The notes under the pieces were generated by a model. The model worked only from the letters and a program-made list of their open reading frames with translations, was not told the origin of the DNA and ran no database searches. A stretch of DNA of 64,000 nt, taken from positions 2,465 to 66,464 of IMG/VR virus record IMGVR_UViG_3300046167_000417; one strand, written 5' to 3'. Source of the DNA: a virus. Each line of letters begins with the position of its first letter. Position 1 is the first letter of the stretch. Shown here in pieces: positions 6,906 through 44,818 of this stretch. A program made the position numbers and the translations under genes.

Positions 6906-9900
6906 TTATGGTCCTACAAATCCACCTGATGGGACCGCTGTTGGAAACACGGTTGGATCTGTTGTGCCAGTACCTCCTCTTGGGTAGAATGGCGGATCTG
7001 CCATTATAACTTCAGTTAAATTTGTTCCTGGATTTTGTATAGTTGGTGTTTGACCAGCAGGAAGATACGTAACTATAGCGCCAGCATAACCAGTTGGAGC
7101 AACACCTGGCCAATTTTGATTTCGGGTCATTTCTATTTTTAAATTAACCGCTGCGCTAGGTTGAAAATTATACGTACCCGTGGTGGTTGTTGGTGTAGGA
7201 TTTTTTTCACCTGGACTAACGCCTTCTGTTATTTGAGTTGAAGTTCTAGACAAACCTTCTAATCTAGCAACTCTTTGAAAAGAACCGTTAAAACCTGTGT
7301 TTTGGTTTGAACCTTGACTTGTTACATCGCTAACAAAGTATCCACCAACAGTATTGGTGCCACTACCTAGTGTACCATCAGGATATGTACCTCCGTTTTC
7401 AGTACAACCTCGAACATCACAAAAGCCAGGGTTTTGCTTACTAGAAGCAATCCATATATCTACATCATTTGCTGTCCAGTTTTGAATTTGACCTTGCCAA
7501 ATAGGTAGATTGTTTGAGCTAGTAATAGTATTTAGCGATATATCTGATTGAGTACCTTCATATGCTGGATTTGGATTACCCTGTGTATATGAAGCGTATA
7601 CTACTTGACCCGTGTAGTTAGCTGCTCCAACAGTGTAATTCATGTAAGTATATGTAACAGCTCCCACGTCGTCTGTAAGACTAAAATATAAAGAATAAGC
7701 ACCTACTTGTTGGTAATTACCAGTAGTAGCATTACCAGATAATACAAATTGTCTATACTTAATAGGGCTTGAGCCACTAGCTGTTTGATTAGCTTGATAT
7801 ACTATACTTGCAAAATCACTTATATTTCCAGAAGTGCCTGAGTTACCAGGGTAAACACCGTAATATGTTACACTACCCGCATTGTTTGTATACCTAGCAC
7901 CTACAAAATCCCAACCATTATTACTACTAAAAGTCGCAGAATCACCATTAGTTGGATATCCAACACCGGATGTTATAGCACTACCATTTAAACCTAATGG
8001 GCTAAGGCTACGCGCGCCTGCGTTTGGATACATACCAACTATCAATCCTCCAGTGTTAGGGACTGTAAAAGGAGGTAAAGTGTTAATTATAACAGGTGGA
8101 TCGTTTTGTAATTGTAAAGTTACAGTTTCAAAAGTATCAACACCACCTAAACTCCATTTAAGATTAACTTCAAATTTACCTCTCCACGTAACATCATACA
8201 AGTTTGAGTTACTACCGCCGGCGAAAAACCCATTGGGATCATTAGGTCCTTGAGCTGTTGTTATATTAAAACTACCATTACCAACGGCCACTAGGTTAAA
8301 TCTACTTATATAATCTATATTAGTGTCTATGGCTTGTGTCGTTGGATTGTAAGAAAAAATATTTACAATAGAACAAGAGGCAGATGTAACTATTTGACCA
8401 CCACTAGTTGGAAAAAAGTTACCAGTTATAGTACTACCTATAACGTCGTTTTCAGAGAAAGAAACTGATACGCTCGAAAAAGTAGATCCATTTATATCGC
8501 CGCTTTCGTTTTGTATATCAGAATTTAAATCAGATATAAGCTGTGCTGAAGATGTCTCGTAAAATAATTCTAATTGTGATACGAAAGGAGATGTTTCATA
8601 AATAGCTAAACCTAAGTTTGCTGGATATGGATCAGTACCTGTGGGTTGAGTGTAAAGCGACTCGTCTAAACCAACTGGTTTTCTAGTAGAAAGCTTAGCA
8701 ACGTAAGGTTTTGTGTTAAAATTATATATAGAATATGGGTTAACATCACCTGCAGCTGTTGGTATAGGATTTGCTGCGTCACCGGTTAAAAGAGGGAATA
8801 CATCTTTTATTGTTCCAACTAAATCAACTGAGTCAGGAGAAAATGCAGGATCAAATTGCTTTGTTTGAGTTGAAAAATTATTCACAACTACAGGAACTAT
8901 ATTTGTTACTCTAGGAAACATTGTTTCATCAGACGTAAATTGATCTTGTAATGGACCAACGTCTTGTAAATTTCTAGGTACTTTGTTTATATTATCAGAT
9001 ATTAAAGTTATAAAACCAGTTTCTCCTTCTTCTAAAGTAGAGCTTTTAATTGGATAACCATTTATTATACCAGGTAAGTAAACATTATAATAATCTTGCT
9101 GTTGTTGTTTTACTCCAAACTTATAAGTGTAAAAACCATTTACGTTTATATCGTAAGTAGCACGAGTCATGTTCGACGTTAGGTCAGGTTCTGGTTGTTG
9201 AAGATCTGGCGTATTAGAGAACAGATATTTAACATCTATTTCTTCCTTAGGTTTGTATAGTTATATTATAAACAGGTGTCGAACTGGATGGTGTTACAGT
9301 TACTATATCAGTGTAGTCTATATACTGGCCTGACATTTTTCTACCAACTGAAAAACATCTACCATAATTTGTAGTAAAATTATCAAACATAAGCCCAGTT
9401 CCATTTGAGCGCACCCCAGCTGATCCTAACTTATATTGATAGTATCTATTAGGTCCAAACAACAACTCTACTTTAACGTTAAAACCAGGAGTTATAGCGT
9501 TATTAAATACAACGTTTACATGAGCTAAACTAACACTTGCTGTGTAATCATCGTTTATTTTTTTTAGTATCCAACCATTACCTTCATTAACATATACATT
9601 GAGAATGTTAGCATTATTTTGGAAATCAACAGCTTTGATAGCATAAGCAAAAAATGTTGTTGTTAAATTTGTTGTGTTTGCGGTAAAGTATTGATAACTT
9701 TGACTTTCAAAATAAGGATACAAAGCTCCTGTGCCCGTGGTTCCAGTTCCATCTTCAATATTTACAGCATAATACTCTCCTTGAGCATAAGCACCTGGGT
9801 AACCCGATGTTAAAGAGTTTTCTGGTATAGGTTGAAGATAGTTTACAGAAAGCGTATCACCAGGCCAATTTAATATATTACCATTAAATTGCAAGGTGTT

Positions 9901-38708: not shown

Positions 38709-38741
38709 ACACAAGAAATACAGAATCAGTTTGATAATATA
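38709..38741 (+). promoter_or_regulatory. Early-region motif copy 1 (ACA-N4-AAATAC-N11-GATAATAYA)
   Basis: Exact consensus match upstream of ORF 38781. Confidence 0.75.
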
Positions 38742-38780
38742 TATGTAACTAAAATACTAATAACAATTAAACTAAACAAT

Positions 38781-38852
38781 ATGCTATTACTTGTCATCGC
38801 ACTACCAATCGCTCTCATCGCTACATTCCTTAGATCTGGAAACAATAGCTAA
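38781..38852 (+). CDS. Hydrophobic micropeptide (23 aa)
   Basis: MLLLVIALPIALIATFLRSGNNS after motif copy 1 and an A-rich leader. Confidence 0.4.
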   Translation: MLLLVIALPIALIATFLRSGNNS

Positions 38853-38860
38853 TCGCTAAG

Positions 38861-38943
38861 TGACACATTGTCATGACATTACAAAGTATAATACTTATAA
38901 TAGTATATGACACAATGACACACTGTGGTATGACATAACGACA
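38861..38943. repeat. Cluster of TGACA pentamers (direct and inverted)
   Basis: TGACA at 38861, 38874, 38908, 38916, 38931; TGTCA at 38869; CGACA at 38939. Confidence 0.6.
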
Positions 38944-38975
38944 TATTAAACAACTAAACAAACATACACATTTAT

Positions 38976-39008
38976 ACATACAAAATACAAAACACAATTG
39001 ATAATATA
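38976..39008 (+). promoter_or_regulatory. Early-region motif copy 2
   Basis: ACA-taca-AAATAC-N11-GATAATATA. Confidence 0.75.
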
Positions 39009-39056
39009 AATGTAACTAAATAACTAAATAATAATAATAACTTAAATATCTTAACT

Positions 39057-39284
39057 ATGCAAAATTTAAATTCAAAAAGATTTGTAATCAGAAAATCTTT
39101 AATCGGCAAAAACACTACAATCAATGTAGTATTCACTAACGGCAAAACTGTCACTTACAATCACGATAAAGTGTATGAAGTAATGAAGTCTAAATTAGAC
39201 ACTATGAACTGCTGGCACAAGTATAAATCATATACTTCTTCAACTAGCGTTCCAGTAATCTGTCGTGAAGTAGTAGAAAAATAG
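39057..39284 (+). CDS. Hypothetical early protein (75 aa)
   Basis: ORF after motif copy 2, followed by a hairpin. Confidence 0.7.
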   Translation: MQNLNSKRFVIRKSLIGKNTTINVVFTNGKTVTYNHDKVYEVMKSKLDTMNCWHKYKSYTSSTSVPVICREVVEK

Positions 39285-39305
39285 TATACTACTTCAAATA
39301 CAAAC

Positions 39306-39381
39306 AGACATAACGGTTTCACTCTGCATTTTGACTACGTGAGCTCTACTTTGTGAGGTGGTTCGATTCCACTAATGTCTA
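39306..39381 (+). ncRNA. tRNA-like element 1 (acceptor stem and T arm, non-canonical middle)
   Basis: AGACAT/ATGTCT stem, GGTGG-TTCGATT-CCACT, then A-CTAA. Confidence 0.65.
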
Positions 39382-39405
39382 CTAATAACTAATAATAATA
39401 TAAAT

Positions 39406-39585
39406 ATGAACAGAAAATTTATTCACTACGTACTAATCAAAATAACAGACATCGCTATTAAAGGATTTATAGCATCACTTGCAACCTTAGCCTTTGGCGG
39501 AATAGCTTACTTCATCTTCATGATGATAACAGGTCAAGTAGATTACTCAGCGATGGATTCTATTCCATGTGGAATATGTAAATAA
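39406..39585 (+). CDS. Small membrane protein (59 aa)
   Basis: One hydrophobic helix, C-terminal CGIC. Confidence 0.55.
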   Translation: MNRKFIHYVLIKITDIAIKGFIASLATLAFGGIAYFIFMMITGQVDYSAMDSIPCGICK

Positions 39586-39589
39586 GTTC

Positions 39590-39622
39590 ACACAGTAAAT
39601 ACAATATCTATATGATAATATA
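39590..39622 (+). promoter_or_regulatory. Early-region motif copy 3
   Basis: ACA-cagt-AAATAC-N11-GATAATATA. Confidence 0.75.
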
Positions 39623-39627
39623 ATAAA

Positions 39628-39768
39628 ATGAAACGTATAAAATACATATCGCTCTTATCACTCTGGCTACAAAGTAACCATGAAATACTACCAGTTCTTC
39701 CACAAGAATTACTCGATGAAGTATATGTATACCAACGCTTCCAAACTAAACTAATTAATAATCTTTAA
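39628..39768 (+). CDS. Small hypothetical protein (46 aa)
   Basis: ORF directly after motif copy 3. Confidence 0.5.
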   Translation: MKRIKYISLLSLWLQSNHEILPVLPQELLDEVYVYQRFQTKLINNL

Positions 39769-39780
39769 AACAATATAACT

Positions 39781-39900
39781 ATGTCTACATTTTCATACAC
39801 ATTACTAAAAATATCTTGGCGACTATACGACAAGCATTACACTAAATTAACTGACGAGCAAAAGTCTAAAGTTATGGATATCTACTACGATTTCTACTAG
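39781..39900 (+). CDS. Small hypothetical protein (39 aa)
   Basis: ORF with A-rich leader. Confidence 0.5.
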   Translation: MSTFSYTLLKISWRLYDKHYTKLTDEQKSKVMDIYYDFY

Positions 39901-39958
39901 TGTACATAAAGGTGACTATCCGAACCTGCGGGCAACGAGCTTAACTGGATAGAACAAA

Positions 39959-39999
39959 AGACATAATGGTTAACGTGAGTTCGATTCTCACCATGTCTA
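39959..39999 (+). ncRNA. tRNA-like element 2 (41-nt minimal top half)
   Basis: AGACATA-ATGGTTAAC-GTGAG-TTCGATT-CTCAC-CATGTCT-A-CTAA. Confidence 0.7.
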
Positions 40000-40028
40000 C
40001 TAATAATAACTTTTAAAATAATAATACT

Positions 40029-40163
40029 ATGCAATTTATACTTACATGCCAAAACGGCAAGCAAATAGATATGTCAAGCGACGTACTAAAACAAATGAGC
40101 GGCGAGATAACTCGTGAAGACGTTCAAGAAAGAATAACCTTCTATCAAAATACTAATAAATAA
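40029..40163 (+). CDS. Small hypothetical protein (44 aa)
   Basis: ORF with A-rich leader. Confidence 0.55.
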   Translation: MQFILTCQNGKQIDMSSDVLKQMSGEITREDVQERITFYQNTNK

Positions 40164-40164
40164 T

Positions 40165-40296
40165 ATGGATTTACTAGACTACATTGACTGGAATGGAATA
40201 TGTGAAGATAATGATTTAAAATATGGTGATCTATCACCTCATCAATATCAACAACTAGAAATAATAATAAAAGAATTTATAAAACAAAATAAATAA
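40165..40296 (+). CDS. Small hypothetical protein (43 aa)
   Basis: ORF, tightly packed. Confidence 0.55.
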   Translation: MDLLDYIDWNGICEDNDLKYGDLSPHQYQQLEIIIKEFIKQNK

Positions 40297-40301
40297 TAAC
40301 T

Positions 40302-40562
40302 ATGGCTAAATACAGAAATGCAGAATATTTCCACAAAGAGTGGATTGCGTATAACGGCGAACATTGCTCAGCTTATACTTGTAACGACGTAGACTTACTA
40401 AGAGGCTACAACACAGTATCATTTCCTGCAAAAACAGAAGCAGAAATGAAAGAAAAAATAGATCACTACATAGATAATAGATCTAATATACTAAAAGGTC
40501 TCGAGCTAGAGCGTAAAGCAGCGGCTGTATTCTATCAAACCTTAGACTATAAAGGCGACTAA
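40302..40562 (+). CDS. Hypothetical protein
   Basis: ORF of 86 aa. Confidence 0.65.
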   Translation: MAKYRNAEYFHKEWIAYNGEHCSAYTCNDVDLLRGYNTVSFPAKTEAEMKEKIDHYIDNRSNILKGLELERKAAAVFYQTLDYKGD

Positions 40563-40563
40563 T

Positions 40564-40743
40564 ATGACTATGAGAGAACTAAGAGAAGTTTTTGGTCAAA
40601 AGGTGATCGACTTCACAATAAGTAAAGATCTATTATGTTATGATGAGATAATGGATAGAGATTACTTAGAGGAAAGAATAAGATTTTATGTAGATACACA
40701 ACAAATACAAATTGAGTTGGATAATACAAATGTAACAAATTAA
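40564..40743 (+). CDS. Small hypothetical protein (59 aa)
   Basis: ORF, tightly packed. Confidence 0.5.
   Translation: MTMRELREVFGQKVIDFTISKDLLCYDEIMDRDYLEERIRFYVDTQQIQIELDNTNVTN
40696..40728 (+). promoter_or_regulatory. Early-region motif copy 4
   Basis: ACA-caac-AAATAC-N11-GATAATACA. Confidence 0.7.
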
Positions 40744-40753
40744 CAAATAAACT

Positions 40754-40954
40754 ATGCTAAAATTAAAACAAGTCAATTCGACTACTATTAAAATCGACGG
40801 CAAAACCTACAAAGGTTATACTGTTGGCGATTTACCAAAAAGATTTGCTTTCATTTATAATGAAGAAAAAGATCAAGAAGGTATCACTGAGTTTTTCAAC
40901 TTCAAAGGTCTTACTTATGTTGAATATAACCCTTCAATATGGTCTTATGTCTAA
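40754..40954 (+). CDS. Hypothetical protein
   Basis: ORF of 66 aa. Confidence 0.65.
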   Translation: MLKLKQVNSTTIKIDGKTYKGYTVGDLPKRFAFIYNEEKDQEGITEFFNFKGLTYVEYNPSIWSYV

Positions 40955-41201
40955 TCCAAAAAACATGAAAGAAGCATGCCTCTATGTAGAACAGGCAAGA
41001 AAAAATCGTGGTCGCGAGCATAGGCGTGTCCACTCCCATGAAGTATGCGGCAGACTGACTGATAGCGAATGGCTGTCTGTAGTTACAAGGCAAAAGAAAA
41101 CGTTTGCTAAAGGTAAGACGTTTGCCCATACTGCAAGGTGGAATGATCACCACGAAAAGTGGGATTTAAAAACAGTAAAAAATAAATACAATAAACTATG
41201 A
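40947..41201 (+). CDS. Hypothetical basic protein
   Basis: Likely start ATG 40947 (MSNPKN). Confidence 0.6.
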   Translation: MSNPKNMKEACLYVEQARKNRGREHRRVHSHEVCGRLTDSEWLSVVTRQKKTFAKGKTFAHTARWNDHHEKWDLKTVKNKYNKL

Positions 41202-41317
41202 GTAAAATAAAAAACCCGTGGGATTTAGCCTACGAATTAAACAAAGATAATTATAGTAGAGCAGATATAGATGATATGTTGTTCTGTGAAGTAGAAGAAT
41301 TAATAAATCAAGAATAA
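41198..41317 (+). CDS. Small hypothetical protein (39 aa)
   Basis: ATGA overlap with the upstream gene. Confidence 0.55.
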   Translation: MSKIKNPWDLAYELNKDNYSRADIDDMLFCEVEELINQE

Positions 41318-41563
41318 ATGAAAGATAATATTAGAGTAAACGGATGGGACTTCGAGTATGTAAGTCAAGATGATGGTAACGACCAGTTTTACCAGTGTAG
41401 AGGTGAGGTAATGTATGATGACGAGCATGACCAAATACCTGAACCAGCGTTGTGGAATGCAGCGTTGAAGTTAGAAGAACAGTTAACCGAAGAAGGTTAT
41501 AGATGTGATGCAAATCATTCAGAAAAAGGTTGGGTTGAAGTAACAATATATAATAAGATATAA
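41318..41563 (+). CDS. Acidic hypothetical protein
   Basis: ORF of 81 aa. Confidence 0.65.
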   Translation: MKDNIRVNGWDFEYVSQDDGNDQFYQCRGEVMYDDEHDQIPEPALWNAALKLEEQLTEEGYRCDANHSEKGWVEVTIYNKI

Positions 41564-41564
41564 T

Positions 41565-41762
41565 ATGGAAAAAGTAAAAGACTATGTAGAAAGTGAATTA
41601 AAAATGTTAGATAGAGGTATTGTAGCCACACCTAATCAAGATTACCTTTTACAATTTACAGAAGCTAACAATGGAAGTAATGATTACTTACTAATGCAAA
41701 TGGCAAAAAACTATGGCTATAAAATAGCTTTATTAAATATAAAAGATAGATTTTATGAGTAG
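41565..41762 (+). CDS. Hypothetical protein
   Basis: ORF of 65 aa. Confidence 0.6.
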   Translation: MEKVKDYVESELKMLDRGIVATPNQDYLLQFTEANNGSNDYLLMQMAKNYGYKIALLNIKDRFYE

Positions 41763-41970
41763 AATGAAAGAAATAGACGAAATAGCACAAGGTATTGCTG
41801 ACGTCACTAAAGAATTAATGTATGATAGTATACATTGGCAAATAGCAGATCAACACGTTGAAGGTGATTCTTACAACGACTTGCACGATTATGTTATGGC
41901 TAAGGCTATTGAGTATATGTATTTATCTCAAGAGAGATTTCCACACAAACAAAATACGATTTCAAATTGA
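41755..41970 (+). CDS. Hypothetical protein
   Basis: ORF of 71 aa. Confidence 0.6.
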   Translation: MSRMKEIDEIAQGIADVTKELMYDSIHWQIADQHVEGDSYNDLHDYVMAKAIEYMYLSQERFPHKQNTISN

Positions 41971-41977
41971 TAATATA
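41945..41977 (+). promoter_or_regulatory. Early-region motif copy 5
   Basis: ACA-aaca-AAATAC-N11-GATAATATA. Confidence 0.75.
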
Positions 41978-42002
41978 AATGTAACTATTAAAATAATAAA
42001 CT

Positions 42003-42191
42003 ATGTATTGTAAATGCGGCACAGAAGTGCACCCTATCAGAATAAATTATGGCTATAAAACTTGTGTTCCTTGCAGCACTGTAGAAGATTACAGTTATAT
42101 TCCTATAATAAATCACAAGACAGGTAATACAATACAAGTTGTTAGCCAAGAAGTAAGTGCATCAGTGCACAGAGCTTGGCGACGTAAGTAG
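42003..42191 (+). CDS. Small Zn-finger protein
   Basis: CKCG...R...Y..CVPC (DksA/TraR-finger-like spacing). Confidence 0.65.
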   Translation: MYCKCGTEVHPIRINYGYKTCVPCSTVEDYSYIPIINHKTGNTIQVVSQEVSASVHRAWRRK

Positions 42192-42427
42192 ACTGTCGCT
42201 GTGTGTACTCAGGGAGGAGATGACACGGCAGGTCTAATAGCTACTGTGGAGGGATTAGTACGGCTACGGTATTTTAAGTAGTTAAGCTAACGAAGATCCT
42301 CTAAGGTAGTAAATAGCTAGACTAGTAGCTTAATTAGGTATGATTAAAGGCGAACGAAGATTAATTAGAAGCATCATTGCATCACCTTCTATTCGGCTCG
42401 ATGATTACACATAAGTGAATAGCTAGC
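42189..42427 (+). ncRNA. Structured non-coding RNA candidate (three consecutive stem domains)
   Basis: Closing helices 42189-93/42232-36, 42240-45/42305-10, 42316-20/42423-27; no ORF; higher GC than flanks. Confidence 0.55.
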
Positions 42428-42430
42428 GGG

Positions 42431-42511
42431 AACTAGGTCAGGTTAGAGACGCAAGACAGGCTTCGCGACTCGGGCTACCGACGGGTATGAGGTTCGAATC
42501 CTCACTAGTTA
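42431..42511 (+). ncRNA. tRNA-like element 3
   Basis: AACTAG/CTAGTT stem, TGAGG-TTCGAAT-CCTCA, then A-CTAA. Confidence 0.65.
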
Positions 42512-42515
42512 CTAA

Positions 42516-42599
42516 GCCCAGCGAATAAATAACAAACCTGCGTACTGGTTGAGTGTAACTAAATCAAGGTACCGGAGAGCGGTTAGGAAATGACTGGGT
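42516..42599 (+). ncRNA. Structured RNA between tRNA-like elements 3 and 4
   Basis: CCCAG/CTGGG closing stem; internal AACC/GGTT, GTAC/GTAC, TGGTT/AATCA pairings. Confidence 0.5.
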
Positions 42600-42600
42600 A

Positions 42601-42665
42601 GGACGTGAATGGTTAAACGTTATACAATATGTATTGTAGTGCGGGTTCGATTCCCGCCACGTCCA
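42601..42665 (+). ncRNA. tRNA-like element 4
   Basis: Perfect GGACGTG/CACGTCC stem, GCGGG-TTCGATT-CCCGC, A-CTAA; no D stem or canonical anticodon loop. Confidence 0.75.
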
Positions 42666-42671
42666 CTAATT

Positions 42672-42704
42672 ACAAATTAAATACGAATAAAAACTGATAA
42701 TATA
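42672..42704 (+). promoter_or_regulatory. Early-region motif copy 6
   Basis: ACA-aatt-AAATAC-N11-GATAATATA. Confidence 0.75.
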
Positions 42705-42713
42705 ATAAAACAA

Positions 42714-42953
42714 ATGGCAGAATTAAAAACAATTTACGACGAGCTTTTACCAAATGTAAAGCTAAAATTAAGAGCTAGCGCTAGAGAATACGCTACAGCT
42801 AAAAGATTAAAATATACATTAATGTCTAAGTACCTATGGTCACACTTAACAATTGACGAGGTTAGAGATCTATTGACATATGGTGGAGTTAACAGCTGGG
42901 AGTTAGACTCTTTTAGTTTCATGTATGGTGATAAAATTATAGATAAAAACTAA
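42714..42953 (+). CDS. Hypothetical protein
   Basis: ORF of 79 aa. Confidence 0.65.
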   Translation: MAELKTIYDELLPNVKLKLRASAREYATAKRLKYTLMSKYLWSHLTIDEVRDLLTYGGVNSWELDSFSFMYGDKIIDKN

Positions 42954-43192
42954 TGGAACAGGTGTTTAAATTAACGAAAAGCGACTTAAGTGAAAGAGCT
43001 TCTAACAAAGCTTTTGCTAAAGTTGCTATGCTAAAATTCGAAATAGACGGTTTAGCAAACGACATAAAGTCGGGAAATACAGGTGGTATAACAATGGAAG
43101 AGCTATGTATGGTGTACGAGAGTACTAAAGTAGAATTACAAGTATGGAATTACTTATCAGAATTAATAGAAAAAAACAATAAATTAACATGA
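42953..43192 (+). CDS. Hypothetical protein
   Basis: Translationally coupled ORF. Confidence 0.65.
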   Translation: MEQVFKLTKSDLSERASNKAFAKVAMLKFEIDGLANDIKSGNTGGITMEELCMVYESTKVELQVWNYLSELIEKNNKLT

Positions 43193-43614
43193 GAGACTTA
43201 GAACAAGAGCATATGGACTGGAAACAGAGACGTGCAGAACTAGTAGATTTATTCGCTAAACGTATGTTTATAGAGTACGGCATCAAAGAAATGACTACTA
43301 AAAGACAAAAGAAAAATGGTACAAAACAGTTTGTTTTACCTAATGGTGATCAAATAGCTTCGTATAAAACCGGTTATGTAAGAAGATGTAACTCAAGCGA
43401 CAGAATATATCAGTTAAACAAGGTATATAAACGTGAAGAAAGATACACTGTTATAAATGGCGGTGAGCTAAAGACTATGAAATATATAGTGCATGCTAGA
43501 GAATTAATTAATGATCCACTTGCAAGACTTATGTATATAGTAGATTTTTGCAAAAGAAACTATGACATGAGAAACTTAACCATGTACGGTGGAGTATCAA
43601 TATGGAATTATTAA
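43189..43614 (+). CDS. Hypothetical protein
   Basis: Translationally coupled ORF. Confidence 0.65.
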   Translation: MRDLEQEHMDWKQRRAELVDLFAKRMFIEYGIKEMTTKRQKKNGTKQFVLPNGDQIASYKTGYVRRCNSSDRIYQLNKVYKREERYTVINGGELKTMKYIVHARELINDPLARLMYIVDFCKRNYDMRNLTMYGGVSIWNY

Positions 43615-43631
43615 CACTTTATTAAATAAAA

Positions 43632-43988
43632 ATGACTAAAATAGAATTACAAGAAAAAGTTGACAAACTAGAAACAACTTTAAACTCAGTAGAGTTAAAC
43701 GCAAAAGTACTAAAAGACGATCTAGCAGAAGCTCAGAGAAAACTAGCTGATGTTAGTAAACCTAAGCTTTATCCGTCTCAGATAGATGAATTAAGAGAAG
43801 CTGTACATCAAGCAGTACAACAGATAAGTTTTGATAACGTAGATTCTTACAGTTATGACTTTGAAATTGACTACGACAACCAACTAAGATTATCTAACAT
43901 AGAATTCGATGGTGAGTCTGACTTAGAGGAATGCATATGTGACTATGTAGAAGATTGTTTTAATGTAATAGATGCTGAAGATGAATAG
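43632..43988 (+). CDS. Coiled-coil protein with very acidic C-terminus
   Basis: ORF of 118 aa. Confidence 0.65.
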   Translation: MTKIELQEKVDKLETTLNSVELNAKVLKDDLAEAQRKLADVSKPKLYPSQIDELREAVHQAVQQISFDNVDSYSYDFEIDYDNQLRLSNIEFDGESDLEECICDYVEDCFNVIDAEDE

Positions 43989-44244
43989 TACTAAGCAAAA
44001 ATTACCTAAATGGTTTAACGGTGAATTATACACTGAAGGTGAAACTGTAGCAAACCCGTTTACAGGTGAAGAGATTGAGCTTACTAATGTTGAGCTCAGT
44101 CTTTATGACTTTATAATGGGTTGTAACATGCTATTTGAGTCATCTCCAAGAGTAATGACAAAAAAAAGAATAAACCAATTTGATAAAGCTCTAATTTGGT
44201 TTAGAATTAATAACCCACAAGCATACATGGTATTGCTTGACTAA
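43981..44244 (+). CDS. Hypothetical protein
   Basis: Likely start ATG 43981. Confidence 0.65.
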   Translation: MNSTKQKLPKWFNGELYTEGETVANPFTGEEIELTNVELSLYDFIMGCNMLFESSPRVMTKKRINQFDKALIWFRINNPQAYMVLLD

Positions 44245-44248
44245 AAAT

Positions 44249-44321
44249 TGCGCGGTAGAGCAGCAGGTAGCTCGCTAGCCTCATAAGCTAGAGGTCGGAG
44301 GTTCGAGTCCTCCCTGCGCAC
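44249..44321 (+). tRNA. tRNA-Met(CAT), partly initiator-like, CCA not encoded
   Basis: Full cloverleaf: TGCGCGG/CTGCGCA, GAGC/GCTC, CTAGC-CTCATAA-GCTAG, TTCGAGT T loop (one T-stem mismatch). Confidence 0.85.
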
Positions 44322-44342
44322 CTAATATTTAAATAACAAACA

Positions 44343-44783
44343 ATGAGTACAAGAAGTATAACAATGGTTGTAGACAGATCAGAAGCTGAAAACAACGAAC
44401 TAGGTTTTGCTTGTGAACCATCCTTATTGGCTGACAAAAGCTATGTAAATATGTATTTACACCACGACGGTTATCCCGAGTGGCATGGCGTTAATTTAGC
44501 TAGATGGGTAAATCACATGCAACAAGATCAAGGATTTACTAATTTTAATGACGCATCAAGAATAGCTGCACACTTAGTAAAAGACTTTCACTACAACAGT
44601 CAATATCTATACCCTAGCGTAGAAAGTATTGATCACATGTACACTTATATACTATGGACTGGTAAATCTGATGTATGGATAAGCTGCTTTAATAATTATG
44701 AGAACAAAAATGTATTTGTTTTACCTTCATATAATGTTGATGTAAGATATAATCAAGACATGGATTATAAGAAGTGGAGCTAA
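44343..44783 (+). CDS. Hypothetical phage protein (HxDGYP family)
   Basis: MSTRS...YLHHDGYPE motif. Confidence 0.7.
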   Translation: MSTRSITMVVDRSEAENNELGFACEPSLLADKSYVNMYLHHDGYPEWHGVNLARWVNHMQQDQGFTNFNDASRIAAHLVKDFHYNSQYLYPSVESIDHMYTYILWTGKSDVWISCFNNYENKNVFVLPSYNVDVRYNQDMDYKKWS

Positions 44784-44785
44784 AT

Positions 44786-44818
44786 ACATAAAAAATACGG
44801 ATGAAATCAGATAATATA
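44786..44818 (+). promoter_or_regulatory. Early-region motif copy 7
   Basis: ACA-taaa-AAATAC-N11-GATAATATA. Confidence 0.75.

What the first reader, a model, noticed from the sequence alone, without database searches (positions are those of the whole stretch)
42189..42669. About 480-nt structured ncRNA cassette punctuated by tRNA mimics
Seen: an ORF-free, GC-elevated block between a Zn-finger ORF and motif copy 6. It comprises a hairpin (42189-42236), a long irregular hairpin (42240-42310), a multibranch domain (42316-42427), mimic 3, a closed ~84-nt domain (42516-42599) and mimic 4. The modules abut with only 1-5 nt gaps. Inference: a polycistronic precursor in which cleavage around the mimics releases discrete small RNAs, analogous to mitochondrial tRNA punctuation or gammaherpesvirus tRNA-miRNA precursors. 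It could also be one large novel RNA. Folding was done by eye only.
Basis: partly seen in the sequence, partly recalled or inferred. Interest (0 to 1): 0.8.

Follow-up and report, generated by a model that had tools for sequence, protein, structure and literature searches.

The report
Phage small-RNA array with tRNA mimics
An uncultured marine phage carries, behind one early promoter-like site, a tightly packed row of six small folded RNAs, two of them tRNA look-alikes (one a message-less relative of the ribosome-rescue RNA tmRNA), built from parts that related phages swap freely; it is a new variant of known phage RNA clusters and what it does is untested.

Summary
Window 42189-42669 is ORF-free, GC-raised and made of six abutting local folds. 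Whole-block folding energy is not decisive: z is -1.98, against -2.10 for the antisense strand and -1.82 for a neighbouring coding stretch. The real support is comparative. Each module recurs in related uncultured phages at 92-98% identity beside genes at 66-78%. Modules B, C, D and mimic 3 show compensatory base-pair changes.

Mimic 4 (42601-42665) is a homologue of the tRNA-like domain of tmRNA without a message. It scores 31.7 bits, below Rfam's cut-off of 47. Elements in the same slot of two relatives score 60.8 and 64.7. This kind is known from mycobacteriophage DS6A (PMC4131195). The window's copy has A3:U70 instead of the alanine mark G3:U70.

Modules occur in many combinations, so one large RNA is unlikely. 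Short tip hairpins are shared between different scaffolds. Co-transcription and cutting at the mimics fit the layout but are not shown.

This scan has noted the same array and mini-tmRNAs on other phage DNA before.

The parts
41953..41977 (+). Copy of the phage's repeated promoter-like motif (AATACR-N10-GATAATATA), the likely start of the unit
   Evidence: 10 matches in the window against 1.06 expected; 7 on the + strand with 0-1 mismatch, this one with 0. Function as a promoter is inferred.
42003..42191 (+). 62-aa C4 zinc-finger ORF; its stop codon overlaps the first base of the RNA block
   Evidence: No Pfam or PHROG family. A homologue is followed by an ORF-free gap holding at least one T-arm element in 61 of 89 distinct loci. 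That set is biased, because many loci were fetched through an RNA motif.
42189..42236 (+). Module A: 48-nt hairpin
   Evidence: z -3.06, 0 of 200 shuffles as good. One homologue only (L032 655-703, 98% identity), so there is no covariation test.
42240..42310 (+). Module B: long irregular hairpin with a conserved core
   Evidence: z -3.03. Six distinct homologues. RNAalifold on 7 sequences gives 25 pairs, 11 with compensatory changes and 4 invariant G-U pairs, so the fold is specific to the + strand.
42316..42427 (+). Module C: three stacked helices (42316-42322 with 42422-42427; 42328-42332 with 42412-42416; 42338-42341 with 42405-42408) with conserved internal loops and a hypervariable tip
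   Evidence: Alignment A2 of 21 sequences: 15 consensus pairs, 7 with compensatory changes. The relatives' 18-mer of its 5' strand occurs in 71 viral contigs. No Rfam match at E up to 10.
42430..42512 (+). Mimic 3: anticodon-less tRNA-like element (acceptor 42430-42436 with 42505-42511, first position mismatched; short UACC-GACG-GGUA hairpin; T arm 42488-42504; discriminator C 42512)
   Evidence: 20 distinct relatives of 54-119 nt. 95.3% of cells are paired against at most 46% when partners are slid. Compensatory changes occur in the short hairpin and the T stem. Position 1:72 is unpaired in 15 of 19. It is not called by ARAGORN or Rfam. Its own z is only -0.74.
42516..42599 (+). Module D: closed domain with an invariant internal loop (5' strand 42520-42534, 3' strand AAAUG) and a variable tip
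   Evidence: 17 distinct instances. 95.5% paired against 82.1% in shuffles, with 0 of 500 shuffles reaching the covariation score; 4 closing-helix pairs change on both sides. In 3 instances the same motif sits inside a mini-tmRNA or stands alone.
42601..42665 (+). Mimic 4: message-less tRNA-like domain of tmRNA (acceptor GGACGUG/CACGUCC with A3:U70, D-loop analogue, 6-bp stem with a 4-nt loop, T arm 42641-42657, discriminator A 42665; trailer CUAA, no encoded CCA)
   Evidence: Rfam tmRNA RF00023: 31.7 bits (cut-off 47), E 2.3e-10, both ends of the model aligned and 303 inner positions skipped. z -3.21. Same-slot elements in L044 and L032 score 64.7 and 60.8 bits.
42680..42704 (+). Next copy of the promoter-like motif, 11 nt after the block's trailer
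   Evidence: 0 mismatches.
44249..44322 (+). Genuine tRNA-Met (CAU). In three relatives (G001, G003, G004) it follows the mini-tmRNA after 4 nt; here 1.6 kb of small ORFs lies between them

Best explanation
The stretch is a genuine array of six separately folding RNA modules on the + strand of an uncultured 66-kb marine phage. It lies in one early unit: promoter-like motif, 62-aa zinc-finger gene, RNA array, next promoter-like motif.

Four modules (A, B, C, D) are hairpin-type scaffolds. Two are tRNA look-alikes without an anticodon. The last, 42601-42665, is a homologue of the tRNA-like domain of tmRNA with no message part. This 'TLD-only mini-tmRNA' kind is known from mycobacteriophage DS6A. 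In this phage it has lost the G3:U70 mark needed for loading alanine.

Inferred mechanism:
- The unit is transcribed as one precursor.
- Host RNase P and 3'-end enzymes cut at the two tRNA-like elements, as in tRNA operons, and the host adds CCA.
- This releases the hairpin RNAs and the tRNA-like RNAs as stable small RNAs.
- The mini-tmRNA then most likely binds host SmpB and competes with trans-translation, charged or not.
- The hairpin scaffolds present short tip hairpins that are exchanged between scaffolds and phages. Their targets are unknown.

Shown here: the modules, their folds, their conservation, their mosaic distribution and the tmRNA homology. Inferred: co-transcription, cleavage, SmpB binding and any effect on the host.
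For: Layout:
- ORF-free and GC-raised.
- Promoter-like motif copies at 41953 and 42680.
- No + strand terminator-like site inside the block.

Conservation:
- 42508-42668 is 97.5% identical in G003 and G004.
- 42243-42337 is 91.6% identical in G001.
- 42316-42515 is 98.5% identical in L033.
- 42189-42237 is 98% identical in L032.
- Flanking genes are 66-78% identical.

Covariation:
- D: 0 of 500 shuffles reach the score.
- C: 7 of 15 pairs compensatory.
- B: 11 of 25 pairs compensatory, plus invariant G-U pairs that fix the strand.
- Mimic 3: 0 of 500 shuffles.

tmRNA homology:
- One search gives 31.7 bits in the window. One search gives 64.7 and 60.8 bits, above the cut-off of 47, for ~80-nt elements in the same slot of L044 and L032.
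- Of 77 distinct GG..CC-A elements, 69 keep G3:U70, with 4:69 covarying as C:G, A:U or G:C. 69 of 77 have the trailer CUA.
- This argues that most family members are selected for AlaRS recognition, not only as cutting signals.

Independence of modules: among 57 loci (the window plus 56 found through the ligase, some near-duplicates), the mini-tmRNA occurs in 45, C in 23, the mimic-3 class in 16, D in 9, B in 4 and A in 2. They appear in many orders, with the mini-tmRNA usually last.

tRNA-operon context: 8 of 43 genuine tRNAs are preceded within 3-8 nt by such an element.

Precedent from passages read:
- PMC4131195: DS6A carries a TLD-only tmRNA, and a similar molecule, chargeable or not, inhibits tmRNA, perhaps by titrating SmpB.
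- PMC4201824: a tRNA-like module with a 7-bp acceptor stem is cut by RNase P and receives CCA in vivo.

Contigs of RNA libraries cover the block: X17 has a 649-nt contig over 41856-42504 and X18 a 575-nt contig over 41886-42460.
Against: - There are no read-level data. All RNA runs were assembled contigs, which cannot show starts, ends, strand or level, and RNA libraries can hold DNA.
- Whole-block z (-1.98) equals the controls. Mimic 3, C and D alone have z of -0.74 to -1.67.
- The window's mini-tmRNA fails two family tests: A3:U70 instead of G3:U70, and 31.7 bits against a cut-off of 47.
- The host is unknown. The nearest cultured phages share at most 35% identity in the ligase.
- The phage has no SmpB, so any SmpB effect is on an unidentified host protein.
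- Module A has a single near-identical homologue.
- High identity of modules between phages could partly reflect recent exchange rather than constraint.
Confidence: 0.5

Rival explanations
1. The tRNA-like elements are only cutting signals, like plant mitochondrial t-elements or tRNA punctuation. They define the 3' end of the zinc-finger mRNA and the 5' ends of downstream messages. The hairpin modules are 3'-UTR stabilisers with no role of their own in trans.
For: The array sits directly behind an ORF and directly before the next promoter-like motif. The mini-tmRNA is usually the last element of the unit. A3:U70 variants arise in at least three sequence contexts: the window with G003/G004, L053 and L177. 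So charging is dispensable in some phages. Two earlier follow-ups of this scan reached this reading for other phages.
Against: 69 of 77 elements keep G3:U70 with covariation next to it. RNase P and 3'-end enzymes do not need that pair. The internal loops of C and D are invariant over 21 and 17 sequences while their helices covary, which is more than a stabilising hairpin needs.
Confidence: 0.2
2. The block is one large structured RNA, or an RNA assembly in the manner of GOLLD or ROOL, whose modules dock on each other, for example through GNRA loops.
For: The modules are tightly packed. GAAA-type loop words (GNCGAAN0-1G) are enriched in the arrays: 27 observed against 9.2 +/- 3.1 in dinucleotide shuffles. 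From recall, GOLLD and ROOL also lie near tRNAs in phages.
Against: Modules occur singly and in many combinations and orders. The predicted folds are all local. There is no Rfam match to GOLLD, ROOL or any family for 42189-42600 at E up to 10.
Confidence: 0.08
3. Module D plus the tRNA-like domain is a working minimal tmRNA. The invariant GCGAAUAAAUAA would be a tiny tag frame (Ala-Asn-Lys-stop).
For: In L040 and in G002 (L007/L059) the D motif sits inside the tRNA-like domain, exactly where tmRNA carries its message, and those copies have G3:U70. L032 has a 6-nt, in-frame insertion in the motif. Tags of only 2 aa are reported in PMC11915505 (passage read).
Against: In the window and in most relatives D lies outside the domain, 5' of its acceptor end, where RNase P would remove it. 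D also precedes other modules (L083, L119, L177) or stands alone (L034). The window's domain has A3:U70. ARAGORN finds no tmRNA in any of the 60 related loci. Fourteen invariant bases fit an RNA or protein contact better than a three-codon frame. The single in-frame insertion has a one-in-three chance.
Confidence: 0.07
4. The elements act at the DNA level (attachment site for integration into a host tmRNA or tRNA gene, or a recombination hot spot), or they are decaying remnants with no function.
For: The 25-nt 3' end of mimic 4 is identical to the 3' end of full-length tmRNA genes on unrelated viral contigs. Gene cassettes differ on either side of the elements between relatives. G001 keeps only the 3' half of the domain.
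Against: The complete phage record has no tyrosine integrase. Both halves of the domain are present and pair. G-U pairs make the folds strand-specific. Compensatory changes in four modules show selection on RNA pairing. The module C 18-mer occurs in 71 viral contigs but in only 2 of 32.2 million bacterial contigs, which is at chance level by my own estimate, so no prophage copies are seen.
Confidence: 0.05

Closest known systems
TLD-only (message-less) tmRNA of mycobacteriophage DS6A, and the CDS-less tmRNAs of jakobid mitochondria and Mallomonadaceae plastids (PMC4131195, PMC11915505; passages read)
   Same: A ~65-80-nt RNA with the tmRNA acceptor stem, D-loop analogue and T arm, no anticodon and no tag frame, encoded by a phage. 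A similar molecule is reported to inhibit tmRNA whether chargeable or not.
   Different: The window's copy has A3:U70 and scores below Rfam's cut-off. It is the last member of a multi-module RNA array rather than a lone gene. In relatives its closing helix carries many exchangeable inserts.
Phage T4 tRNA region with the small RNAs RNAC and RNAD (PMC3014915, passage read: transcribed from the tRNA region, roles unknown)
   Same: Non-tRNA small RNAs are embedded among tRNA-type genes of a lytic phage and presumably matured by the host tRNA-processing enzymes. Function is unknown.
   Different: Here only one real tRNA lies nearby and the punctuating elements cannot decode. There are several conserved non-tRNA scaffolds with swappable tips. 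There is no sequence relation: no Rfam hit.
Bacterial and phage Y RNAs (YrlA) with a tRNA-like module (PMC4201824, passages read)
   Same: Non-coding RNAs that mimic the upper half of a tRNA. One is cut by RNase P and receives CCA. A GNCGAAN0-1G word is conserved there, and the same word is enriched in these arrays.
   Different: No Ro60/TROVE gene in the phage. No Rfam Y-RNA match. In YrlA the RNA ends form the Ro-binding stem, whereas here they form the acceptor stem.
tRNA punctuation, plant mitochondrial t-elements, gammaherpesvirus tRNA-miRNA precursors, MALAT1 mascRNA (recalled, not read here)
   Same: tRNA-shaped elements used as RNase P / RNase Z cutting signals that free neighbouring RNAs.
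   Different: Those systems are eukaryotic or organellar. Here most family members keep alanine identity, which a pure cutting signal does not need. Cleavage is untested.
GOLLD and ROOL large phage RNAs (recalled; both are in Rfam)
   Same: Large structured non-coding regions of phages, often beside tRNA genes.
   Different: No match at E up to 10. The modules here are independent and mosaic.

Membership tests
tmRNA (Rfam RF00023) | Score at or above the curated gathering cut-off (47 bits) | tested here: not met
   The window at 42601-42668 scores 31.7 bits, E 2.3e-10. Same-slot elements of relatives L044 and L032 score 64.7 and 60.8 bits. L059 scores 37.5 bits.
tmRNA (Rfam RF00023) | G3:U70 wobble pair and discriminator A73 (AlaRS identity) | tested here: not met
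   The window has GGACGUG/CACGUCC, which gives A3:U70, with A73 present. 69 of 77 distinct family elements have G3:U70 and 7 have A3:U70.
tmRNA (Rfam RF00023) | mRNA-like domain with resume codon, tag frame and pseudoknots | tested here: not met
   303 inner model positions are skipped and the closing stem ends in a 4-nt loop. ARAGORN calls no tmRNA in the window or in the 60 related loci.
TLD-only (CDS-less) tmRNA, DS6A type | Acceptor stem, tmRNA-type D-loop analogue and T arm only, encoded by a phage | tested here: met
   The alignment to both ends of RF00023 and the fold. The element is homologous and syntenic with elements above the cut-off.
TLD-only (CDS-less) tmRNA, DS6A type | Binds SmpB / inhibits trans-translation | not testable with these tools
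   Known only from the statement in PMC4131195 about a similar molecule. The phage has no SmpB of its own.
Canonical tRNA | Cloverleaf with a 7-nt anticodon loop, called by tRNA finders | tested here: not met
   ARAGORN and Rfam tRNA call only 44249-44322. Mimic 4 has a 4-nt loop and mimic 3 has a long irregular hairpin there.
Polycistronic tRNA-type precursor (T4 tRNA region type) | One transcript spanning the modules | tested here: inconclusive
   Promoter-like motifs flank the unit and no terminator-like site lies inside. RNA-library contigs bridge the ORF and modules A-C, but contigs do not prove a single transcript or even transcription.
Polycistronic tRNA-type precursor (T4 tRNA region type) | RNase P / 3'-end cleavage at the tRNA-like elements and CCA addition | not testable with these tools
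   Only the prerequisites are seen: 7-bp acceptor stems stacked on 5-bp T stems; the same CUA trailer in 69 of 77 elements; direct abutment on real tRNAs in relatives.
GOLLD / ROOL / any other Rfam family for 42189-42600 | Covariance-model match | tested here: not met
   No match at E up to 10 in 41900-44600 falls within 42189-42600.
Bacterial Y RNA (YrlA) | Encoded near a Ro60/TROVE gene, with ends forming the Ro-binding stem | tested here: not met
   No TROVE domain in the phage record and no Rfam hit. Only the short word GNCGAAN0-1G is enriched.

The most novel reading that the evidence does not exclude
The array is a natural 'RNA display' system. A few conserved carriers hold a shared pool of short tip hairpins: two tRNA-like carriers that borrow host tRNA maturation and stability, and two hairpin carriers with invariant internal loops. 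The tips are moved between carriers, nested inside one another, and exchanged between phages. The released small RNAs would act as decoys or sponges for host translation, RNA-decay or defence proteins such as SmpB or Ro60-type factors, so the swapping would track an arms race.
Probability: 0.22. Interest if true: 0.8.

Novelty: new variant of a known kind. Interest (0 to 1): 0.6.

Why it matters
A common group of uncultured marine phages is involved: the module C word alone is in 71 viral contigs, mostly of 50-70 kb. If the reading holds, these phages devote an early transcription unit to a set of undescribed structured RNAs.

The work adds at least three covariation-supported motifs that Rfam lacks (B, C, D) and an anticodon-less tRNA-like class (mimic 3). 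It shows that message-less mini-tmRNAs are not a curiosity of one mycobacteriophage but the constant last member of such arrays.

Recurrent loss of G3:U70 gives a natural test of whether these RNAs work charged or uncharged. Sharing of tip hairpins between unrelated scaffolds is unusual and offers a handle on what phage small RNAs bind.

Tried and rejected
1. Whole-block folding z-score as a test. It is -1.98, but the antisense strand gives -2.10 and neighbouring coding sequence -1.82, so I rejected it as uninformative.

2. Rfam at the gathering threshold and at E up to 10. Nothing for modules A-D or mimic 3.

3. Antisense targets in the phage's own genome. There are 7 reverse-complement matches of 11 nt or more, against 7.8 expected from shuffles. 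No support.

4. Attachment-site reading. No integrase was found.

5. Phage-encoded partners. No SmpB, no PolyA_pol/CCA-enzyme family and no TROVE domain.

6. Cultured relatives. blastn of the block against 50,697 phage records found only a 26-nt T-arm match in Xanthomonas phage XacN1. The ligase is at most 35% identical to cultured phages. No experimental system or host was identified.

7. RNA-seq. Only Logan contigs were served.
- Contig depth over 41856-42504 (14.6 in X17) and 41886-42460 (9.84 in X18) exceeds that of flanking contigs (about 2-6). X19 shows a summed depth of 666 over 42478-42711.
- The tool states that contig depth cannot rank genes and sums other organisms, so I do not count this as evidence of expression.
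- Stretches without cover in X17-X19 prove nothing.
- Loose ends at 42246, 42304, 42407, 42442, 42475, 42512, 42517 and 42670 fit co-occurring variants that differ at module borders, not RNA ends.

8. The 14-mer of module D scanned over viral contigs was too unspecific. Only 11 matches among the 112 newly fetched loci had a T arm nearby.

9. The module C 18-mer in bacterial genomes gave 2 hits, a MarineAlpha12 MAG and a Shewanella. By my own estimate chance alone would give about 17.

10. The tag-frame reading of module D is kept only as a low-odds rival.

11. Literature.
- Searches found no description of this array or of anticodon-less tRNA mimics in marine phages. One search returned 0 papers.
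- Mao et al. 2009 and the T4 genome review are not held, so DS6A inhibition is cited only through PMC4131195.
- Supplementary tables of PMC11915505, which may list further viral TLD-only entries, could not be seen.

12. My first promoter pattern had the wrong spacer and found nothing meaningful. It was corrected.

13. Pfam and PHROG scans of ten neighbouring small ORFs gave nothing usable apart from the ligase.
Full report
WHAT THE WINDOW IS

The window is nearly all of a 66,464-bp virus record that CheckV rates complete. It is AT-rich with many small ORFs. It has no close cultured relative: the block finds only a 26-nt T-arm match among 50,697 phage records, and its DNA ligase is at most 35% identical to cultured phages. 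Sequencing runs that hold it are seawater or marine metagenomes. The host is unknown.

THE OBSERVATION

Between the stop of a 62-aa zinc-finger ORF (42003-42191) and the next ORF (42714) there is no ORF of 30 aa or more in any frame. GC rises to 0.41-0.48, from 0.28-0.35 in the flanks.

Each piece folds the same way alone.

The whole block has z = -1.98. Modules A, B and mimic 4 alone reach z of about -3. C, D and mimic 3 do not.

RELATIVES

- A 25-nt word from mimic 4 found 13 viral loci. Four of them are related phages.
- The ligase found 56 more related loci.
- A word from module C occurs in 71 viral contigs.

Against the relatives the RNA modules are far better conserved than the genes around them:
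- 42508-42668 is 97.5% identical in G003 and G004.
- 42243-42337 is 91.6% and 42467-42522 is 92.9% identical in G001.
- 42316-42515 is 98.5% identical in L033.
- 42189-42237 is 98% identical in L032.
- Flanking coding DNA is 66-78% identical.

Each module is shared with a different subset of phages.

THE MODULES ARE FOLDED RNAS ON THE + STRAND

- Module D (17 distinct instances): 95.5% of cells pair, against 82.1% in shuffles and at most 41% with slid partners. Four closing-helix pairs change on both sides, and 0 of 500 shuffles reach the covariation score. A 14-nt 5' loop strand and AAAUG on the 3' side are invariant.
- Module C (21 sequences): three helices, 15 pairs, 7 with compensatory changes, invariant internal loops and a hypervariable tip.
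- Module B (7 sequences): 25 pairs, 11 compensatory, plus four invariant G-U pairs that would be C-A mismatches on the other strand.
- Mimic 3 (20 sequences of 54-119 nt): an invariant acceptor stem whose first position is unpaired in 15 of 19, a short UACC-GACG-GGUA hairpin and a T stem that covary, and a variable insert where the anticodon arm should be.
- Module A has only one near-identical homologue.
- None of 42189-42600 matches any Rfam family at E up to 10.

MIMIC 4 IS A MESSAGE-LESS tmRNA DOMAIN

Rfam aligns 42601-42668 to both ends of the tmRNA model and skips 303 inner positions. The score is 31.7 bits, E 2.3e-10, below the cut-off of 47.

In relatives with the same neighbours, the element in this slot is an ~80-nt RNA. 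It scores 64.7 bits in L044 and 60.8 bits in L032, above the cut-off. A third subclass scores 37.5 bits.

Among 77 distinct elements with GG...CC-A ends, 69 have G3:U70, with position 4:69 covarying as C:G, A:U or G:C. Seven have A3:U70. 69 are followed by CUA rather than CCA. The seven include the window's type, L053 and L177, two doubtful registers and two true tRNAs of an unrelated contig.

ARAGORN calls no tmRNA in any related locus. Unrelated viral contigs with the same 25-nt 3' end carry full-length tmRNAs with tag frames.

A TLD-only tmRNA is on record for mycobacteriophage DS6A. A similar molecule, chargeable or not, is said to inhibit tmRNA, perhaps by titrating SmpB (PMC4131195, passages read; PMC11915505, passages read).

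So this part is a known kind. In this window it is a variant that, by the established G3:U70 rule, should not be charged.

ARCHITECTURE OF THE ARRAY

The repeated motif AATACR-N10-GATAATATA has 7 good + strand copies: 10 matches against 1.06 expected. One copy lies at 41953-41977, before the zinc-finger ORF. The next lies at 42680-42704, 11 nt after the block. No + strand terminator-like site lies between them.

Across 57 loci (the window plus 56 ligase-selected ones, some near-duplicates), module frequencies are:
- mini-tmRNA: 45 loci
- module C: 23
- mimic-3 class: 16
- module D: 9
- module B: 4
- module A: 2

Further recurrent modules occur in many combinations, with the mini-tmRNA usually last. 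That argues against one large RNA of fixed design.

Eight of 43 real tRNAs in these loci are preceded within 3-8 nt by an anticodon-less element. In G001, G003 and G004 the mini-tmRNA abuts tRNA-Met, which in the window lies 1.6 kb downstream. This is the layout of a tRNA operon.

SWAPPABLE TIPS

The variable tips of the scaffolds are not private to one scaffold. Identical or near-identical segments of 20-47 nt occur in the tips of different scaffold classes. Examples are module D of L178 with the mini-tmRNA of L064, module C of L034 with the mini-tmRNA of L050, and module C of L039 with the mini-tmRNA of L036. I counted 48 cross-class matches and about a dozen distinct segments, with boundaries set by my own patterns.

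One tip motif can be nested inside another, as in L037, L039 and L069. The module D core itself lies inside the mini-tmRNA in L040 and G002, but outside it in the window.

EXPRESSION

Six RNA-library runs hold the region. I laid four of them, and all are assembled contigs.
- X17 has a contig over 41856-42504.
- X18 has a contig over 41886-42460.
- X15 tiles the whole stretch.

This shows presence in RNA libraries. It shows no transcript ends, no level and no strand.

MECHANISM

Shown: the modules, their folds, their strand, the selection on pairing, the mosaic distribution, the tmRNA homology and the operon-like setting.

Inferred: one early precursor; cutting by host RNase P and 3'-end enzymes at the two tRNA-like elements; CCA addition by the host, since the phage has no such enzyme; release of stable small RNAs; binding of host SmpB by the mini-tmRNA, since the phage has no SmpB.

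The near-universal G3:U70 in the family argues that these are more than cutting signals. Its repeated loss argues that charging is not always needed, and both points fit a decoy. The function of modules A-D and of the shared tips is unknown. I found no antisense target in the phage.

COMPARISON AND NOVELTY

The closest precedents are:
- the DS6A TLD-only tmRNA;
- the T4 tRNA region with RNAC and RNAD, of unknown role (PMC3014915, passage read);
- tRNA-like modules of Y RNAs;
- by recall, tRNA punctuation systems.

New here are the multi-module array as a conserved early unit in a large uncultured phage group, three or more undescribed covarying motifs, an anticodon-less tRNA-like class with a mismatched first pair, and tip exchange between scaffolds.

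Other agents of this scan have noted the same array, the zinc-finger plus mimic unit and a 'swappable insert' on related phages. I reached the points above from my own calls.

Noticed in passing
window 39306-39381 and 39959-39999: Two further anticodon-less T-arm elements lie upstream. The 41-nt form (acceptor stem, 9-nt linker, T arm) recurs in many relatives with clear acceptor-stem covariation: GACAU/AUGUC, GUAGU/ACUAC, GUCAC/GUGAC, GCCAU/AUGGC.
   Followed up: partly
G001 (L027 reverse strand, about 8443-8482 of my oriented copy): This relative keeps only the T arm and the 3' acceptor strand of the mini-tmRNA, directly before tRNA-Met. About 1.6 kb of small ORFs lies where module D and the 5' half would be, so cassettes are gained and lost at these elements.
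   Followed up: partly
window 42003-42191 and homologues in relatives: The 62-aa C4 zinc-finger gene sits directly upstream of the RNA array in most closer relatives: 61 of 89 distinct loci have a T-arm element in the ORF-free gap behind it, in a biased set. A protein-RNA pair is possible but untested.
   Followed up: partly
L040 6087-6205: The insert of this mimic-3-class element is a perfect tandem duplication of a 26-nt unit. L034 and L050 tips hold a 13-nt word twice. Repeated single-stranded words are typical of protein sponges.
   Followed up: no
arrays of 45 related loci; window 42348-42355: The word GNCGAAN0-1G, described as the likely Ro60 contact in bacterial Y RNAs (PMC4201824), is enriched in the arrays: 27 observed against 9.2 +/- 3.1 in shuffles. 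It may simply reflect GAAA tetraloops. The phage has no TROVE gene.
   Followed up: partly
L003, L004/L005, L008/L009, L013 (unrelated viral contigs): Full-length tmRNA genes on viral contigs share the exact 25-nt 3' end of mimic 4. ARAGORN reads the tags as ANKNQFALAA, GNYNLALAA and a 22-aa tag. L013 has a ~240-nt tmRNA-like gene with no tag called.
   Followed up: no
window 42672-42760 compared with L043 4494-4600: L043 has almost the same downstream promoter-like motif and ORF start as the window, but a different subclass of mini-tmRNA (GGGGGUG type, G3:U70) in the slot. This is a clean module replacement between conserved flanks.
   Followed up: partly
window 38717-44818: Seven + strand copies of AATACR-N10-GATAATATA with 0-1 mismatch, each before a gene run. 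They define the early units in which all the tRNA-like elements lie.
   Followed up: partly
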